Shown here piece by piece: positions 4,752 through 59,707 of a stretch of 64,000 nt of DNA. The position numbers and the translations under genes are program-made. This DNA comes from the human T2T-CHM13v2.0 reference genome, Homo sapiens: assembly GCF_009914755.1 (NCBI RefSeq), contig NC_060933.1; one strand, 5' to 3'. The stretch's first letter is position 1. Each line of letters starts with the position of its first letter. The notes beneath the pieces were generated by a model that ran no database searches, was not told the origin of the DNA, and saw only the letters and a list, made by a program, of their open reading frames with translations.

Positions 4752-4855
4752 TCCGTTTCTGACCTGGAGAGACGTACAGCATGTTATTGTCAGGACTTCC
4801 CGTGCGGGACATTTGAACGCTAATGACTGGAAAACCAATGCTGCTGGTTTTAAGG
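4752..4855 (+). CDS. PCSK5: PCSK5 coding exon (probable exon 10), end of S8 subtilisin-like catalytic domain: (N)PFLTWRDVQHVIVRTSRAGHLNANDWKTNAAGFK
   Basis: tctttccccag| acceptor, G|gtgag donor, 104 nt, phase 2->1; LTWRDVQH is the conserved kexin/furin-family motif. Confidence 0.97.
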
Positions 4856-7800
4856 GTGAGAACTTCTTTCATATTCTGTCACAGGCAAAATATTTTTATT
4901 TTTCCCCCATTTTAAATGGAGAGCAGGAAACAGAACCCCTCAAACGAAACTTTAAACTTTGTGCTGACAAACAAAGAGCTTGATCTTTTAGTAAATAAAA
5001 GGCAGGTTGATTTTTTTAAGTTAAAACTACACAGATAAGGGAGATTTCTTTGGCTTCCCACATCATAGGTCAATTTTTTTAAAAGATCGACCAACCCCCA
5101 TGTATAGTCGGCCTATGGGACCCCTGATTAGTTTACTATTTGCTGTCACTGAATATCTAAGTAATATTTATAATAATGTATTTTAAAATTCCTCACCTTC
5201 TATAGGACTACTTCCACTTCAATAATAACTGATATATATTGTTCACTTTAGTGTAGCACTGTTAGTTGCTAAGGCCATGCATTCTACAAATTTTGTTTTT
5301 GTTTGTTATAAATCTTCCACAAAGAAAAGCAGGTAATAATTCTAAGAAATGTTACTTTATATAAACTAAAAATTTTAATGAAGCTTTATAATGTCCAGTC
5401 CTTATGCAATTGTGCACAATATGTAACAAGTACTGAATATTTTCCCATGGCTAATACAGATCATAGTTCCCAAAATAGCTATTCTATTTGTTGTCATAGG
5501 TAATATATGTTATAATAAAAATAAAATTAGCTATATAAAACATATATCCTAAAGTTTAGTATATCTACTCAAGTTGTAAGTGACCTAAGTTATAATAAGG
5601 TTTTAATTCATTAATCTAACTTGTAACAAACATTAATTTGTTTATATCTACAGACTTAAAACATATTCCCAAATAATCTTAGTATCATCATATATCTGTA
5701 TGGATGAAATACAGTGTTCCATAGCACAGGGCACATCTCCTTAAAAATTGAGGTTCTGATGGTCAGACCGTTGGTAACATGGTCCTGGGCAAGTCATTTA
5801 ATTTTTAAGGGCCCTAATAATTTAAGCATTTTGGATGCTAAGTAATATTATCTACGTATCATATCTTACATATGATCTTTATATATCCTTATATGAGCAA
5901 TATATGCAAATATTTCTGCCAGAATGTATATTTTTAAAATTACTTGTAAATAATTTATTATAGACTCATGCTGAAACAAAACCTATAAATATCCTAGATA
6001 ACCAGTGCCACATTAATAATTATTTGATTAATATCTTCACAGAAAGCTTCACTCTATTTTTAGGAAAAGAATATTTCTCTGCTTTGAAGTATTATCAAAC
6101 ACCTTTCCATGCATGTAAACTATATAATGCAGCAGTGTTCAATGAACTTTTAATCTAGAGTTGTAAATACCCGTTGGCATTGCATTCTCTGAAGCCCAAA
6201 TCAGGAGATTTGATCCCAAAATTGTAATTGTATGGGAGACATCAAAATTATTTGAAATTTCGGTTGTTCCGGAAAATCCAGGATGTAATTTGCCATATGT
6301 ATGTTTCATTTTGATTAGCTTCCACATGCTCCCAACTCGTACAATATAAATCCATGAGGCTGCAGGGGAGAGAAGGAGCTGACACATAACCTTAGCTAGT
6401 TGAAAGCTGGAATGAACTTCTTAGTAGAAGGATCACAGACTAAGGACATTAACCTCCATGAAGCTGAAGAAACTTTAACCCGAATAAATATCTTAGTTTT
6501 ACTTATTCCTTTTTGGCAATTTAAAAAGAGCAAATGGTTCTAACAAAAATGCAGCTCTTCTGAAAACCTCTGTTGGTTTAGGAGAGGGGGAGACAGAGGG
6601 TTTAGACTAAGTCACCAGACCCAAACCTGAATCTAAAGGGGTTTGTGCACTGCTTTAAGGAGGAAACGGTATTTTACTATTGCACGTGGCAATATTTAGT
6701 ATAATATTTCACTCTTCTCTTAGATGGCTGCCAAGAGTAACAATTAAAGTTTGCTTTTTCACAGATGAATTATTCTGAATGGGCTGGGCTCCCAGTGGGA
6801 TTGTTTTGTAATTTTGTTGATGGCGAGTCCCGTATTTCATCTAAACAGGATCATAATAAGATGACTTAAGAAAAAAAAAAAGTTATTCTCTACTCTAAAC
6901 GTTACCATCCCCTCCCTAGAGTCCCACAGATAAATGTGATTAAGGCAGAGGCTAGCAGGAGAAGCAACATGCTTTGGGGAAGTGGAGAATGCAGGGTACT
7001 AGGACTGCAGAAAGATGCTATGACTTTTTATGAAATAACATCTGAAAGAACAATAAAGAGCTAATGGTTAGAAAAGGTTCCTACAACAAGAGCTCAACAA
7101 GGGCTTGTATTTAAATGAGGTCAGCCGGCTTTTGCAGGTCTTGCTTAGCAGGAATCCATAGTCACGTATTTCTCCTTAGACTGGGAAAACGGAAGTTGCC
7201 TGCCTACAGAAGTGTGTGGTCCTGGGTGCCCTTCTTTGTCCCACCCAACTCAGCCCTAACACTGAGTAAAATATATGTATGAAATGAATCTGAAAACTCC
7301 TGTTCTTCCTTGGGCTTACTTTTGTTTTCCCAGTGTTGAGTAATTTATTAATAACTTGTTGGAAAAGTAGTTTAAAAAAAAATAGGAGAACAATTTCACA
7401 AATTGCTCAATAGGTACCTGCCAGTAATAGGGACATCAGCGTCACCCATCAGAATTTCTTTCTCATCACGTAAAGCAGAAGCCACTTAGAGTAGCAAACA
7501 ACTCAGTTTTGGAGTTCAGACATCACTAGACTTGATAGTCTTTGTTATCACTGATAACTTCAGTAAAGCCAACACCCCAATGAATAGTCTCTACCAAAAC
7601 CCTACCAAATCCATTTTATCCAACCTCCTTACATTTCTTCAGACATACCCCCATGTCCTACATCCTAGGCAGACAGCAGGGCTGGATGATGTGTGAGCTA
7701 GACTTGTGTGCAGCCCTCCTGAAGGCAGACTTGATCCATTCTTACCCACATGTGTTATGGACTGGAACAGGGAAGGGTTTCTCGTCCTGAAGCAGCTACT

Positions 7801-10800
7801 GGCTTGGACAGATTCTCATTCAGGCCAGGAAGTTGGCCTTGAACAACTAAAGAATGTGGCTTTCTGATGACTCATCTCTGTTTCTCTGAGAGTGGGGTTA
7901 CCCTGGAGGTGCTCACTGATGAGCTAGGGACAGAGAACTTTCTTCTCCTTTTTCTGTGCCCTCCTTATAAAAGCACTCTGTAAATGACCCTGTAATGAGA
8001 TGACCTCACAGAGAGGGAAGACACATGTAAACATTCTTATGTTAATGGCACCTTAATTTTCAACAATTTTAATCAAACTAAGATTATTCTATCCTGCTGT
8101 TTCTTAAATAATAATAACAATCTCATAGTATAATTAAAATATCTTTTCTGGTAGATTAGTTTTTCACAATAAACATAATCTGATGAATACATACCTATGG
8201 AAACTGACTAAACATTGTTTGGCCTTGTTCATCTTGTGAATAATCCTAGCTAAGTTTCAGACAACAGCTTTTGACTTTAAACCTCCTCCAGAGATAGTTT
8301 TTTTAATTAAATGGTATAAATATCATGTACCTATCAGAGAATCTACTTTAGATTGCCCATGAGAATAGGGAATTATTTGCCTTAGACCAGATGAACAGAT
8401 GTGATATTCTGCTACCAGAGAACTGAAATCCAAATTCCAGTATTTTGCTTCTGACCAATATTTGCAATGCCAGAAGGTGACTTTGGCATTCAGCTGTTTG
8501 GGGTTTTGTTAGTATTATTTCTTTCCTCCCCTTGATCCCTTCCCTTTCTGCTTAGGAAAAGTCTTTTCTGTTTTGTTTTGTTTTCTATTCTTTTTAATTC
8601 TCCCTTGTGTTCCCTAAAGCATATGAATTAGCCATAAAAGTGAAGGCTTTTGCCATTCCAGCTGGTTTTCCTTCCTGGAATTTAATGGATGTTATCTCTT
8701 CATTTATTTATTTACCAATATTTCCTGAGCACTTTCAGCATGCCAACCCAACACATGTTGAAGTGAGCGCAGAAAGTGGGAGGGGAAGAAACGTCAGGGA
8801 CACCATGGCGTTGACTAATCTGACCTGCCCTGGTGTAACTTACATACAGAAACAGAAATTTACACTCCATCTCTTTTTTTCTTTAGTCAAGCCCCGACAA
8901 TCTGCCAGGTCATGTTAGATAAGTGTTGATGATCCTTCTCTCATCATCTAAAATTCAGGTTAATGTCGGCAGCAGAAGGCATCTGCTATAGAGAATATCT
9001 TCTGTGGTGTCTGATGTGTATTTTGACCAGCTCCATTTGGGCATATAGTACATGCAGATCCATAGAGCCATGCGGAAGACTTTTAATTCAGGCATTTTTC
9101 ATAACCTACGGCTTGTATCATTTCAGGAAGAAGTTAGCTCTTTCTTGTGATCTCCTCCCTTTTAGTGCTATAATCTGAGGAAACTGTAAATCCACTGACC
9201 TCTCCCACCAGTGCCTGGGCTGTGCAGGCTGATTCTTGGCCCGAGTCCTTATCTTTGGTTTGGGTGTGAAGTTATAATTATAATTGAATGCATGCAACAT
9301 CAGTGATCTAGTTTTCTTTTTTTCAAAGTGTTTATATTGGATTATATGACTGTATACAGTTAAACTCTCTTAAATCTAGGAACAGGAATAGACGTCAGAT
9401 AATAAATTAGGACCTTCTGTCATCTTTACTAGGCGAAAGAATGAAAAAAATGTCATTGAAAATCAAAAAATGACAACTAAGTGAGAGAGGTTACCACGCC
9501 TTCCATTTCACTGCCCTCCCAGACTATGTAAGTCTCTTTTTTTCTACCAGCATGTTGCTGAAACCTCCCCCATCCCCACTGACTCTTTCTTTGACCACAA
9601 CTAAACTACTAGATTTTTTTTTTTTAATTTCTAACTGATTACCAACCGTGGGGAAAACAATTGACAGTCTAACATGACTTCTTAGCCTCCGAGGCCTTAA
9701 CTTTTAATAACCTGTATTACTTTTAATTGCCATCATTTTATTTCCACTGGTAGGGTTGATAATTTTAAGATGTCCAATATATTTTTAATACCTACCTGTC
9801 TTGCTTTCAGTTTGTAACACTTATTAAAAAGAATTCAAAGTGCTGAAACCATTAAGCATGCTGTGTGTTCAATCAAAATGAAAGGTTTTGAAATGTGCTT
9901 TTGAGTTGTGTTTTGAGTATAAAGTGATTTCTGATGTGTTACCATTTGAAAGGGTAAAGTTTCATTTTCCTTTATTATTTCACTGTACAAATAATATTCC
10001 ATCTTCGCCACCTACTATGCTGATACACTGTTGGTAGCTATGATTAAAGCTACATAAGGCACTTTAATTGGTAATGTGTACATTGTGGTTTTAAAGAAAG
10101 GTTGAAGTGAAGTGGTACTCATCTGGTCAGTGTCTGAGGTGGTATTATCAGAAAAATTAGTCCCTTGACTCCAGTCTTGATCCCACTTGCAGAAATGAGG
10201 CCCTTCCTACTTGAAAAGACAGAGGGAAGTAAATACATTTGATTCCACCTAATAAAATGTGCCCCCTGGAAATGCCGCCTAACATATTTTTTTAAGATTC
10301 TATGTTTTCTACCATTGTGCTCTGCAAACTCATACCCATTTCATATTGACTGAAACCCTTTCATTTTTGTATTTATTGACCATTGTGTAGATGAGCTTAT
10401 CTTCTAGCTCATTTACAAAAACAAAAAAACAAAAACTAAACAAACAAACAAAAAAACAATGTGAATCACACAGAATTCAGGAATTTTACCCTTATTGTTT
10501 TGCCTGGTAGATGATTTACCCAAACATCTCCATGGGAATATAGAAGCCCTGATAGCAAACTCTGCTTGGTCATGGCTTAATCCAGAGTCTTTCATCCAAA
10601 ATGCCCACTTGTCTCATCAGAATGTTCAACTCATGCCTACCAAATATGTGACGCTCAAAAATATTTTCTACAAATGAAAAGTGGTGTTTTCTCTGTGCCT
10701 GTCCTTGACTGAATGGTGGTATTAGGTTTGTTAGGCTTTTGGGGGTTTCATTTTGTTTTGCCCTTTCATCCCTGTAAGTTTTAAATGCATGCGGTTTCAC

Positions 10801-29601: not shown

Positions 29602-29790
29602 GACAATCCGCCCTAACAGTGCAGTGCGCTCCATCTACAAAGCTTCAGGCTGCTCGGATAACCCCAACCGCCATGTCAACTACCTGGAGCACGTCGTTGT
29701 GCGCATCACCATCACCCACCCCAGGAGAGGAGACCTGGCCATCTACCTGACCTCGCCCTCTGGAACTAGGTCTCAGCTTTTGGCCAACAG
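29602..29790 (+). CDS. PCSK5: PCSK5 coding exon (probable exon 12), P domain with RRGDL motif (29723-29737)
   Basis: ctctgttacag| acceptor, AG|gtacag donor, 189 nt, phase 2->2; TIRPNSAVRSIYKASGCSDNPNRHVNYLEHVVVRITITHPRRGDLAIYLTSPSGTRSQLLAN(R). Confidence 0.97.
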
Positions 29791-40325: not shown

Positions 40326-40462
40326 GCTATTTGATCACTCCATGGAAGGATTCAAAAACTGGGAGTTCATGACCATTCATTGCTGGGGAGAAAGAGCTGC
40401 TGGTGACTGGGTCCTTGAAGTTTATGATACTCCCTCTCAGCTAAGGAACTTTAAGACTCCAG
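40326..40462 (+). CDS. PCSK5: PCSK5 coding exon (probable exon 13), P domain: LFDHSMEGFKNWEFMTIHCWGERAAGDWVLEVYDTPSQLRNFKTP
   Basis: cactttcag| acceptor, G|gtgag donor, 137 nt, phase 2->1; WxFMTxHCWGE motif. Confidence 0.97.
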
Positions 40463-44271: not shown

Positions 44272-44596
<325 letters not shown>

Positions 44597-44619
44597 AGAA
44601 AATGCTGTTTTGCACATAG

Positions 44620-44806
44620 ACCCATAGAACATTCTGCAATGATGGAAATGCTGTCCAGTAGGGTGGCCACTAGCCACATATGGCTCTTGAGCACTGGAAA
44701 TATGGTTAGTGTGATGGAGAAGCTGAATCTCAAAATTTTTGTTAATTTTAGTTCATTTAAGTTTAAATAATCAAATGTTTAATGGCTATCACATTGGACA
44801 GCACAG
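44620..44806. mobile_element. MER3-like hAT-Charlie MITE (between two inverted Alus)
   Basis: atagaacattctgcaatgatggaaatg...gccactagccacatatggct.ttgagcact...attggacagcacag. Confidence 0.8.
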
Positions 44807-44814
44807 GTCTATAG

Positions 44815-45227
<413 letters not shown>

Positions 45228-45603
45228 ATATAAGACTTTTTATACCTAGAAAAACAAAGCCTTCTATTAAGTCCTGGGATTCTCTTAAATATTTCTAATT
45301 TGAAATTCAGCCCTTGATCCAGCAATCTGAAGTGTGTTTGTTTCTCAGTCTTCCTATAAATGCTGATTAAATCAAGGCCTCTCTGGTAGTACATGCTCAG
45401 TCAATATGTGGTATGTGAATTATTAAATAATTCTGCAGATGACGAGAAATACGCATTTCTAGCTCTGCGTTTGATGTAGTGATTGATATCCATCTGCCTC
45501 CCACAGTTCTGTTGCTTTTTCTTGAGTGAGAAGGACTTAAAGATGTTACAGAGCTAAAGAGGGAAAATTTGGTCATGCTGTGATTTCATTATTATTTCTC
45601 AAG

Positions 45604-45747
45604 GTAAATTGAAAGAATGGTCTTTGGTCCTCTACGGCACCTCCGTGCAGCCATATTCACCAACCAATGAATTTCCGAAAGTGGAACGGTTCCGCTATAG
45701 CCGAGTTGAAGACCCCACAGACGACTATGGCACAGAGGATTATGCAG
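45604..45747 (+). CDS. PCSK5: PCSK5 coding exon (probable exon 14), end of P domain plus acidic linker: (G)KLKEWSLVLYGTSVQPYSPTNEFPKVERFRYSRVEDPTDDYGTEDYA
   Basis: atttctcaag| acceptor, G|gtgag donor, 144 nt, phase 1->1; WSLVLYGT motif ends the P domain. Confidence 0.96.
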
Positions 45748-45815
45748 GTGAGCTGGCTTCCAGTGGGACACAGGCTAAAAAGAGGCAGCTCATGCATCAT
45801 CCCACCACATGGGAG

Positions 45816-45950
45816 AACAGAATGGAATGGAATGGAATGAAATGGAATGGAATGGAATGGAATGGAATGGAATGGAATGGAATGGAATCGAATCGAATCG
45901 AATCGAATAGAATAGAATAGAACAGAACAGAATAGAATAGAACAGAACAA
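45816..45950 (+). repeat. Compound pentanucleotide array, 27 units: AACAG,(AATGG)3,AATGA,(AATGG)9,(AATCG)4,(AATAG)3,(AACAG)2,(AATAG)2,AACAG,AACAA; (GGAAT)n satellite II/III-like
   Basis: Read directly; strict 5-nt periodicity. Confidence 0.97.
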
Positions 45951-46049
45951 TCTACTACCCATATTCTGACATATTTTCTTCCCCTTAAATATTTGTGTGT
46001 GTATATCAGTGCACTCATATATTCAAATATCCATATGTGTTATCTGCAA

Positions 46050-47560
46050 AGCTAATAGTCCATATTGCGATTGTACCATAATATAGTTAATCTGTAATCT
46101 GGGACATATTGTTCGCTTACAGAATTTTACACTATTTTAAACACGGTTTGGATAAACATCATTATTTATCAATCTTTGTCTATATCTTCATTATTTCTTT
46201 AGAATAGAGTTCTGTTTTGAGACTTACTGCATCAAAGAGGATAATCAGCTTTAGGGCTTGGAAACATTTTGTCACTTGCTATCCAGACAAGATGTACCAG
46301 TCTTCACTGTGACCAGCTATGTGATTGTTTATTACACTCATTCCTGCCAACAGAAAAAAATAAAGAGAAAAAAAAGTAAAAAAAAGAAAGAGGTGAACGT
46401 TTTAAAAGTGTTATAGCTTTGATTGCCTGTAAATCTAAACATTTCTTCCTCTGTAGTTCTCTGAATTAAATACAACTGTCTTATCCATTTTTCTATTCGA
46501 AGTACAGTAATCCTCTTATCTCCTTGTGAACACTCTGTATGTTATTGTCTCTCACATTGTTTCGTCTTTGCTGAAAACATATTCTCACTTATCACTGTTA
46601 AGTTTTGTTTTGGTTTGTGTTGTTTTGACAAAAAAAAAAACTATTAGAGGCTGGGGTTTATGGTCTCAGATATAACACTGATATTTTGCAGAAGTTTTAT
46701 CCTTTAATGTCTACTGAATATTCACATGCTTTGCTTGGTAATCTCTTATTTTTTACATTTGGCCATTAATTCATCTGGAACTCATTTTGGTTTATGATAT
46801 ACAGTGTCAATTGAAGCTCTGTCTTTAGTTATTTTCCAAACAGACTAACATCATTGGCCAAGTAACTATCCCTTCTTTTTGTATTAGTTTAGGATGCTTC
46901 CTTTGTAACAATATAGTAAGTTCTTATACCAGCATCTTTTCTGGTTCCGCCTTTTCTGATTCATCAATCTAATAATTCTCAAACCAATACCACCCACACT
47001 GTTTTGTTTTCATTTCATGATGTTATTTTTATATTTGTAGAACATCTGCTTCCCATTTCCATAGCAATTATTGCCTTATTATTCTTCCAGATGAATTTTA
47101 GAATGATTTTTAAGTCTCCCTTTAAAAGTCTCATTGGAATTTAATTTGAATTTATATGCAGTCTTATGGGAAGAATTGTTTTTGCAACATACAATCTTTC
47201 CATTTAAAACATAGATCATGTCCCACTTTACTGCAATCTTTTAATTTTATGTAGTTTTCTTCTTGTTAGCGTTACACCTAAGTATTTTTGGGCCTTGGTG
47301 CTCTTATAGTGGAAAATATTCCATGCTTTCTAACTAGTGTATGCTGGTGTGTAGGAAATCTATTGGTTGTATTTATTTTATATGGCCACTTTGCTTAACT
47401 CTCTCATTAATTTATATAGTTTAGAGTTGATTTTCTGGGATGGTTTAGGTATTACAGCCTTATCGTCTACAAATTGGTTTTGTTGTCCTTCTTGTCATTA
47501 TTTCTGACTACTGTCTTGTTGCATTGGCTAGCACTCCTAGGAGCATTCAATCCTTCTAAG
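46050..47560 (-). mobile_element. Highly diverged L1M ORF2/3' fragment, antisense
   Basis: attcttccagatgaattttagaatg...gctggtgtgtaggaaatctattg...gcattggctagcac resemble antisense L1 ORF2; boundaries approximate. Confidence 0.6.
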
Positions 47561-59191: not shown

Positions 59192-59289
59192 CCTGCAGGG
59201 ATCCCGGTGCTCTGTCTCCTGTGAAGATGGACGGTATTTCAACGGCCAGGACTGCCAGCCCTGCCACCGCTTCTGCGCCACTTGTGCTG
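59192..59289 (+). CDS. PCSK5: PCSK5 coding exon (probable exon 18): LQGSRCSVSCEDGRYFNGQDCQPCHRFCATCA
   Basis: cttcttccag| acceptor, G|gtacct (weak) donor, 98 nt, phase 2->1. Confidence 0.95.
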
Positions 59290-59707
59290 GTACCTTCCCT
59301 AGTTCTTTTGTTTATTCTCCCGGTTCTGGTTTTGCTTTTCTTTCTGGTTTGGGCCATCACTCATGCAACCCACTTGATACTTTTAAAGTAATGCTGGAAA
59401 AGTTTATTTCTCGTTTGATAATTGTGTGTGTATTCTCATTGAAAGTCAAGCAGTCATCAGCATCCTATCCTCATTGAGAAACTTACATAGCCCAGTGATA
59501 GCTCCTCTTTCAAAAGACAGTGAATGTTTTTGTCAAGAGGTTCCATTTTAACTTTGAAGGCTTTTTTCCCAGGGAAATCAAGAAAAAGCATGAATATTAA
59601 ATTATTATTCTTTGACGCCATTTTCTCAAACTGTTAAAGAAGAAGCCCATGACACCACCTCCTCTGAGGTTTTATTTCTCGTTTCCTGTGTTTGTCTTGC
59701 TTTTAAG

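What the first reader, a model, noticed from the sequence alone, without database searches (positions are those of the whole stretch)
45604..45920. Exon 14 reads through into a satellite-like array, giving a candidate ~690-aa convertase isoform with an (MEWNG)n tail
Seen: if the exon-14 donor (45748) is not used, the PCSK5 frame stays open for 57 codons: GELASSGTQAKKRQLMHHPTTWENR-MEWNG-MKWNG-MEWNG-MEWNG-MESNR-IESNR-IE*. A dibasic KKR (45777-45785) precedes the repeat block. Established: pro + catalytic + P domains are the minimal active convertase unit, and the Cys-rich domain (exons 15-20) mediates TIMP/heparan-sulfate cell-surface tethering of PC5A. Poly-WNGME is the pentapeptide made from the SCA31 (TGGAA)n repeat. 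Inference: taking PC5A as 913 aa, this product is 633+57=690 aa. It would be an untethered, potentially active enzyme that could clip off its own satellite-encoded peptide at KKR. I recall a ~690-aa annotated PCSK5 transcript, but that must be verified.
Basis: partly seen in the sequence, partly recalled or inferred. Interest (0 to 1): 0.8.

Follow-up and report, generated by a model that had tools for sequence, protein, structure and literature searches.

The report
Known PCSK5 transcript ending in microsatellite
The open frame running from PCSK5 exon 14 into an intronic (GGAAT)n repeat is real, but it is an already annotated, non-conserved and probably incidental transcript model, not a new convertase isoform.

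Summary
The sequence observation is exact. Past the exon-14 donor (45747|45748) the PCSK5 frame stays open for 57 codons and stops at TAG 45918-45920, after crossing a compound pentanucleotide microsatellite (45814-45947).

It is not more than chance. Of the 11 annotated donors in the window, 2 give read-throughs of 57 codons or more. (GGAAT)n has no stop in the frame used, and 5 of 6 frames are open across its core.

The isoform is already annotated and in print. Nakamura et al. 2015 (PMC4467638) describe Ensembl transcript PCSK5-003 / ENST00000376767, whose exon 14 runs into this (GAATG)n repeat. They place residues W676 and G678 in the tail. These map onto window 45873-45875 and 45879-45881, which fits 633+57 = 690 aa. 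The same paper reports repeat-unit variation in people and no conservation across species, and judges the tail variants unlikely to matter.

RefSeq (hub table) has no such exon. The donor CAG|GTGAGC is strong. The first AATAAA after the stop lies inside a 36-nt A-rich tract, a likely internal-priming site.

The most likely reading is a rare intron-terminated or unspliced by-product whose tail is incidental. The enzyme logic (complete P domain, no Cys-rich domain) is plausible but untested. I rate it already known, low interest.

The parts
45604..45747 (+). PCSK5 exon 14 (constitutive). It encodes KLKEWSLVLYGTS..., taken to be the last strand of the P domain, followed by an acidic linker ...VEDPTDDYGTEDYA.
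   Evidence: Hub RefSeq table; translation; the paper calls it exon 14 of PCSK5-003.
45745..45753 (+). 5' splice site CAG|GTGAGC. It matches 8 of 9 positions of the MAG|GTRAGT consensus.
   Evidence: read directly from the sequence.
45748..45920 (+). Read-through extension of exon 14, as in Ensembl ENST00000376767. With the split codon starting at 45747 it gives a 57-codon tail, then stop TAG at 45918-45920.
   Evidence: PMC4467638 text and Table S2.
45777..45785 (+). KKR tribasic motif in the unique part of the tail. P4 is Ala and P6 is Thr.
45814..45947 (+). Compound pentanucleotide microsatellite of 27 units: GGAAT, then CGAAT, then AGAAT/AGAAC.
   Evidence: TRF; unit list; RepeatMasker (GAATG)n as quoted in PMC4467638.
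45844..45888 (+). Pure (GGAAT)9 run. Its 7th and 8th units (45874, 45879) carry the reported G>C variants rs77249767 and rs62556590 (W676S, G678R), which the authors attribute to repeat-number variation of the 5-nt units.
45839..45843 (+). GAAAT variant unit. It gives K in the PCSK5 frame (MKWNG) and a TGA stop in one other plus frame.
46354..46389 (+). A-rich tract (36 nt) containing the first AATAAA after the stop (46359-46364). It is either a candidate poly(A) site or an oligo-dT internal-priming site.
   Evidence: TRF; hexamer scan; sequence.
46465..46470 (+). Second downstream poly(A) hexamer, ATTAAA, followed by T-rich sequence.

Best explanation
The feature is the already annotated Ensembl alternative transcript PCSK5-003 (ENST00000376767). 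In it exon 14 is not spliced at its donor, and the message continues into intron 14. Translation continues by default for 57 codons: 25 codons of unique intron sequence, then a (GGAAT)n microsatellite that contains no stop codon in the frame used. It ends at the first TAG, made by the degenerate AGAAT units.

The most likely origin is a rare by-product. Either the transcript is cleaved and polyadenylated early in intron 14, or unspliced pre-mRNA was primed at the A-rich tract 46354-46389 when the source cDNA was made. The MEWNG tail is then an accident of repeat composition, not a selected peptide.

If the message is translated, the product would be a PC5 with pro, catalytic and P domains, without the Cys-rich domain, carrying a non-conserved Trp-rich tail. 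That part is inference.
For: Shown:
- PMC4467638 (passages) states that the (GAATG)n repeat is transcribed only in PCSK5-003. It places W676 and G678 in exon 14 of that transcript. It reports that these 'missense' calls come from repeat-number variation and that the region shows no conservation across species.
- Table S2 gives hg19 g.78790172 and g.78790177, 5 nt apart. These map to 45874 and 45879, the first G of the 7th and 8th units of (GGAAT)9, next to the CGAAT block. c.2027 minus 127 is c.1900, which falls on 45747. That gives 633 codons before the tail and 690 in all.
- The open frame is not exceptional. 2 of 11 donors give 57 codons or more, as do 4.5% of 20,000 random starts. 5 of 6 frames are open across the GGAAT core.
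- The donor CAG|GTGAGC matches 8 of 9 consensus positions.
- The hub's RefSeq table (9 transcripts) lists no exon past 45747.
- The first AATAAA after the stop sits inside a 36-nt A-rich tract.
- The tail has no Pfam family at E up to 1 and only chance PDB hits at E about 0.5.
- Only 1 paper in the searched library names this transcript.
Against: - Ensembl curators kept the model as protein coding at the time of the 2015 paper, which implies at least one supporting cDNA. I could not see that cDNA, its 3' end or its tissue.
- A real AATAAA (46359) and a real ATTAAA (46465) lie within about 550 nt of the stop, so genuine intronic polyadenylation is possible.
- A message ending in intron 14 would escape nonsense-mediated decay (inference).
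- The P domain would be complete, so the product could fold.
- I could not examine RNA-seq, long-read, Ribo-seq or mass-spectrometry data, or ape genomes.
Confidence: 0.75

Rival explanations
1. The read-through message is a regulated intronic-polyadenylation isoform that yields a secreted, active PC5 not tethered through a Cys-rich domain. The enzyme may trim off its own repeat tail at KKR.
For: - The model is annotated as coding in Ensembl.
- The P domain lies upstream of the break: Pfam PF01483 profile 1-73 of 86 falls in the two preceding exons.
- The P domain is described as essential for folding, and the Cys-rich domain as the HSPG/TIMP anchor, for PACE4; the title of Nour 2005 extends this to PC5A (review PMC9296861, passages and reference list).
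- Poly(A) hexamers lie downstream.
- From recall: C-terminally shortened PC5A of about 65 kDa occurs naturally.
Against: - The tail is reported as not conserved and as polymorphic.
- The open frame is within chance.
- The donor is strong.
- RefSeq has no such exon (hub table).
- KKR has Ala at P4, so it is a poor PC5/furin-type site (recalled specificity).
- De Bie 1996 (abstract only) places a granule-sorting signal in the last 38 residues of PC5-A, which this product would lack.
- No paper in the library reports the protein.
Confidence: 0.1
2. The repeat matters as RNA, not as peptide. About 12 GGAAU units, 76-141 nt downstream of the 5' splice site, bind SRSF1/SRSF9-type proteins. This tunes use of the exon-14 donor (intron retention or early termination), for instance during recovery from heat stress. 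The coding tail is a side effect.
For: - SFRS1 and SFRS9 bind UGGAA repeats directly, and SatIII GGAAU RNA recruits SRSF1 (PMC8185138, passage).
- The array lies close to the donor.
Against: - Only 12 perfect units are present, against hundreds in SatIII or SCA31.
- The region is reported as not conserved across species.
- The RNA fold is no more stable than shuffles: z = -0.35, and 72 of 200 shuffles fold at least as well.
- There are no Rfam matches in 44500-47500.
- No binding or splicing data for this intron were available.
Confidence: 0.08
3. The feature is purely a cDNA-library artefact. Oligo-dT primed on the genomic A-rich tract of nuclear pre-mRNA, so no such mature mRNA exists.
For: A 36-nt A-rich tract at 46354-46389 lies about 435 nt after the stop. 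The hub's RefSeq table lists no such exon.
Against: The tract also holds a canonical AATAAA (46359) with T/GT-rich sequence after it, so a true site cannot be excluded. I could not see the supporting clone or its 3' end.
Confidence: 0.07

Closest known systems
Ensembl transcript PCSK5-003 / ENST00000376767 (as described in Nakamura et al. 2015, PMC4467638)
   Same: It is the same object. Exon 14 extends into the (GAATG)n simple repeat. W676 and G678 lie in the repeat-coded tail, and their codon and genome positions fit this window's sequence.
   Different: None found. The model's 3' end and its protein length in GRCh37/38 were not visible to me. 690 aa is computed from T2T-CHM13 plus the paper's codon numbers.
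PC5A lacking the Cys-rich domain: engineered deletions, and the natural C-terminally shortened form of about 65 kDa (Nour et al. 2005 seen as title only; De Bie et al. 1996 seen as abstract only; the 65-kDa form is recalled)
   Same: A pro + catalytic + P domain enzyme without the HSPG/TIMP-binding region.
   Different: Those forms arise by proteolysis or by construct design. They carry no repeat-coded tail.
PCSK6/PACE4 splice variants
   Same: The sister convertase has eight described splice variants differing at the C-terminus, 'most of them found only at mRNA level' (PMC9296861, passage).
   Different: Different gene. None is reported there to end in a microsatellite.
SCA31 poly(WNGME) pentapeptide-repeat protein and HSATIII MEWNG-rich proteins
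   Same: The same GGAAU-coded pentapeptide unit, identical in every frame (PMC8185138; bioRxiv 10.1101/2025.11.12.688122).
   Different: Here there are only 4 MEWNG-like units (3 perfect), fused behind a secretory-pathway enzyme and read from the gene's own AUG. This is not a kilobase expansion, not RAN or internal-AUG translation, and not cytoplasmic.

Membership tests
Ensembl ENST00000376767 (PCSK5-003) terminal exon | Exon 14 continues past its donor into a (GAATG)n simple repeat | tested here: met
   The paper's passage agrees with window 45748-45947. The RepeatMasker start, 59 nt before c.2027, maps to 45815. TRF starts the array at 45814.
Ensembl ENST00000376767 (PCSK5-003) terminal exon | Codon 676 is TGG (W) and codon 678 is GGA (G), with G>C variants 5 nt apart | tested here: met
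   45873-45875 is TGG and 45879-45881 is GGA in the read-through frame. Positions 45874 and 45879 each start a GGAAT unit next to the CGAAT block.
Kexin-like proprotein convertase with complete P domain | Pfam P_proprotein (PF01483) lies wholly upstream of the break | tested here: inconclusive
   Profile 1-34 of 86 falls in exon 29602-29790 (E 1.3e-11) and profile 39-73 of 86 in exon 40326-40462 (E 2.4e-9). The last 13 profile positions gave no separate hit in exon 14. Exons could only be scanned one at a time.
Kexin-like proprotein convertase with complete P domain | Prodomain and the catalytic triad present | not testable with these tools
   These exons lie upstream of the window. Only the end of the catalytic domain is in the window.
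Pentapeptide-repeat (poly-WNGME) proteins of SCA31 / HSATIII | Long uninterrupted GGAAU-coded repeat (kilobase-scale expansion or satellite) | tested here: not met
   The window has 12 perfect GGAAT units (3 + 9), which give 4 MEWNG-like pentapeptides. SCA31 insertions are 2.5-3.8 kb (PMC8185138 abstract).
Functional intronic-polyadenylation isoform | A poly(A) signal with a genuine cleavage site downstream of the new stop | tested here: inconclusive
   AATAAA at 46359 lies inside an A-rich tract. ATTAAA lies at 46465. No read data were available.
Functional intronic-polyadenylation isoform | Conservation of the extension | not tested
   No primate genomes are available in these tools. The paper reports no conservation across species.
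PC5/furin-type cleavage site | R-X-(K/R)-R, or basic residues at P1 plus P4 or P6 | tested here: not met
   T-Q-A-K-K-R|Q has P1 R and P2 K, but P4 A and P6 T. The motif definition is partly from PMC9296861 (given there for PACE4) and partly recalled.

The most novel reading that the evidence does not exclude
In some human tissue or stress state, the GGAAU tract just inside intron 14 recruits SRSF-type proteins, weakens use of the exon-14 donor and promotes early polyadenylation. The result is a human- or ape-specific secreted PC5 without its Cys-rich anchor. Its MEWNG tail would be detectable with the existing anti-MEWNG antibody and would vary in length between people.
Probability: 0.05. Interest if true: 0.5.

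Novelty: already known. Interest (0 to 1): 0.15.

Why it matters
As it stands it matters little. The model has been in Ensembl since before 2015, and one paper has already discussed it and dismissed its tail as non-conserved.

It has practical value as a caution. Exome pipelines call repeat-unit variation in this intronic microsatellite as PCSK5 'missense' variants (W676S, G678R) only because this model is labelled coding.

If the protein were shown to exist, it would be a naturally untethered PC5 and a rare case of a microsatellite-coded, length-polymorphic C-terminus on a secreted enzyme.

Tried and rejected
- The protein database search with the tail (residues 48-104, longer proteins) gave 118 hits at E up to 0.001 among 967 candidates. 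All were 183-532 aa. None listed a convertase Pfam domain. Coverage was mostly about 40-60%, which is the repeat part. The best coverage was 88% at 44% identity (P0064), and that protein is itself a repeat-only ORF. The human 690-aa record is evidently not in that database, so the search says nothing about annotation or about apes.
- The PDB sequence search with exon 14 plus tail gave 2 hits, both immunoglobulin chains at E 0.46-0.49, which is chance.
- Pfam on the tail alone and on exon 14 plus tail gave 0 families at E up to 1.
- Rfam on 44500-47500 gave 0 matches.
- The RNA fold of 45735-45960 gave z = -0.35.
- Nour et al. 2005 (PMC1266420) is not held. For De Bie et al. 1996 only the abstract and references are held, so the 65-kDa truncated PC5A is cited from recall.
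- Paper searches: 'PCSK5' + 'intron retention' gave 2 papers (listing only, not read). 'PCSK5' + 'intronic polyadenylation' gave 0. Six identifiers recalled from memory gave 4 papers holding at least one, 3 of them listed, and only PMC4467638 names ENST00000376767. Q5JSG7, BC012064 and AAH12064 had 0 occurrences in the 3 listed papers, so my recollection that an MGC clone underlies the model is unverified.
- I first took the hub's 'other transcript' exon 4862-9527 for an intron-terminated exon. One search shows that it ends at a perfect donor, so I dropped that parallel.
- Conservation in apes, population repeat lengths and expression data could not be examined with these tools.

Full report
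**Observation.**
- Exon 45604-45747 is read in codons from 45606 and ends ...VEDPTDDYGTEDYA.
- Its last base starts a Gly codon that is completed by the intron's GT.
- Without splicing, the frame runs GELASSGTQAKKRQLMHHPTTWENR MEWNG MKWNG MEWNG MEWNG MESNR IESNR IE. That is 57 codons, ending at TAG 45918-45920. KKR lies at 45777-45785.
- Tandem Repeats Finder reports a period-5 array at 45814-45947 (26.8 copies).
- In register the array reads AGAAC, AGAAT, (GGAAT)3, GAAAT, (GGAAT)9 at 45844-45888, (CGAAT)4, (AGAAT)2, (AGAAC)2, (AGAAT)2, (AGAAC)2.
- It is the only such array in the window: 13 overlapping matches to a three-unit probe, all within 45819-45893, against 0.01 expected.

**Is the open frame more than chance? 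No.**
- Reading in frame past each of the 11 annotated donors of the window gives 42, 1, 10, 12, 57, 1, 18, 1, 62, 1 and 36 codons. Two of 11 reach 57, and the longest is at a different exon (59192-59289).
- Of 20,000 random start points in the window, 4.5% are open for at least 57 codons. 28.6% are open for at least 22, the length of the unique segment before the repeat.
- GGAAT repeats contain no stop in any plus frame. [quoted passage not shown]
- Stop-to-stop ORFs span the GGAAT core in two of three plus frames and in all three minus frames. The remaining plus frame is closed only by the single GAAAT unit.
- Whichever frame leaves the GGAAT run meets a TAG in the AGAAT units within 6-9 codons, at 45908, 45913 or 45918. 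Changes in unit number would therefore alter the tail's length but never abolish it. This is a property of the repeat, not a sign of selection.

**What it is.** A full-text search for transcript identifiers that I recalled led to Nakamura et al. 2015, BMC Res Notes 8:228 (PMC4467638). I read passages of Results, the whole Discussion and supplementary Table S2. The paper states the following.
- Ensembl transcript PCSK5-003 (ENST00000376767) carries in its exon 14 a RepeatMasker (GAATG)n simple repeat (hg19 chr9:78790113-78790255).
[quoted passage not shown] **These coordinates fit the window exactly.**
- Counting 633 codons before 45747, codon 676 is TGG at 45873-45875 and codon 678 is GGA at 45879-45881.
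- Positions 45874 and 45879 are the first G of the 7th and 8th units of (GGAAT)9, directly before the CGAAT block. That is where a shift in unit number would look like a G>C change.
- c.2027 minus 127 nt gives c.1900 at 45747, the first base of codon 634, in the phase found.
- The RepeatMasker start, 59 nt before c.2027, maps to 45815. TRF starts the array at 45814.
- I could not see the model's own length or its 3' end.

**Surroundings.**
- The donor CAG|GTGAGC matches 8 of 9 positions of MAG|GTRAGT. The hub's RefSeq table (9 transcripts) has no exon beyond 45747.
- Downstream of the stop, the first plus-strand poly(A) hexamers are AATAAA at 46359 and ATTAAA at 46465.
- The first of these lies inside a 36-nt A-rich tract at 46354-46389. 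A cDNA ending there could come either from a true site or from oligo-dT priming on unspliced RNA.
- Pfam places the P domain (PF01483) at profile positions 1-34 of 86 in exon 29602-29790 and 39-73 of 86 in exon 40326-40462. Exon 14 and the tail give no family.
- By inference, the first residues of exon 14 (KLKEWSLVLYGT) are the last strand of the P domain. A product ending after exon 14 would then have the P domain and none of the Cys-rich region, which starts in the next exon (PCDPECSEVGCDG...).
- The tail has no PDB relative (2 chance hits at E about 0.5). The RNA has no Rfam match and no unusual fold (z = -0.35).

**Mechanism.** The best-supported account (confidence 0.75) is that this is a minor, non-selected transcript, either terminated early in intron 14 or captured as unspliced RNA. 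The ribosome simply continues until the first stop, and the repeat happens to lack one.
- Shown: the annotation, the sequence fit, the polymorphism and lack of conservation (from the paper), the strength of the donor, and the ordinariness of the open frame.
- Inferred: low abundance, escape from nonsense-mediated decay if the message ends in the intron, and the domain content of the product.

**Rivals.**
The domain logic is sound. The review PMC9296861 describes the P domain as essential for folding and the Cys-rich domain as the HSPG and TIMP anchor for PACE4, and cites Nour 2005 for PC5A. Nothing, however, shows that the protein is made. KKR has Ala at P4, and the PC5-A C-terminal sorting signal (De Bie 1996 abstract) would be missing.
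- An RNA-level role for the GGAAU tract (0.08). SFRS1 and SFRS9 bind UGGAA repeats directly, and SRSF9 released from HSATIII bodies represses splicing of many introns. Here, though, there are only 12 perfect units and no reported conservation.
- A pure priming artefact (0.07).

**Comparison with the known.**
- The feature is identical with an existing Ensembl model.
- As an enzyme form it resembles Cys-rich-domain-less PC5A and the many C-terminal PCSK6 variants 'found only at mRNA level'.
- Its tail shares the unit of SCA31 poly-WNGME and of the HSATIII MEWNG-rich proteins. It is not a member of those: it has 4 units, not an expansion, and it would be read from the gene's own start codon.

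**Searches that led nowhere.**
- The large protein search with the tail found only repeat ORFs: 118 hits among 967 candidates, lengths 183-532 aa, and no convertase domain.
- Nothing in the searched literature links PCSK5 to intronic polyadenylation (0 papers).
- Two papers holding 'PCSK5' and 'intron retention' were seen as listings only.
- bioRxiv supplements and any expression, proteomic or primate data were out of reach.

**Verdict.** The object is already known and is most probably incidental. Interest 0.15.

Noticed in passing
window 4856-9527: The hub lists an exon of another RefSeq transcript at 4862-9527. It ends at a perfect donor, TAT|GTAAGT (9527|9528). Its start, 7 nt after the donor of exon 4752-4855, is not preceded by AG. 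It therefore looks like a very long alternative first or internal exon, not a terminal one. Separately, read-through of the donor at 4855 is open for 42 codons, with a stop at 4981 and AATAAA at 4994.
   Followed up: partly
window 59289-59477: The donor of exon 59192-59289 (CTG|GTACCT, a weaker match to the consensus) has the longest in-frame read-through in the window: 62 codons, with the stop at 59475. This shows that such open extensions are ordinary here.
   Followed up: no
proteins P0001, P0003: Predicted proteins in prokaryote assemblies carry long perfect (MEWNG)n blocks fused to ordinary bacterial sequence. One is a Saccharothrix sp. 'hypothetical protein' of 321 aa on an 8.5-Mb contig; another is a Rossellomorea 'VanW family protein'. 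They look like human GGAAT-satellite reads assembled into bacterial genomes, or chimeric gene calls.
   Followed up: partly
window 45909-45947, minus strand: The 3' part of the array reads (ATTCT) and (GTTCT) units on the minus strand. ATTCT is, from recall, the SCA10 repeat unit. Only 2 + 2 such units are present here.
   Followed up: no
whole window: AWTAAA hexamers number 267 on both strands, against 196.6 +/- 11.6 in dinucleotide-preserving shuffles. A poly(A) hexamer near any intronic stop is therefore weak evidence in this AT-rich gene.
   Followed up: no
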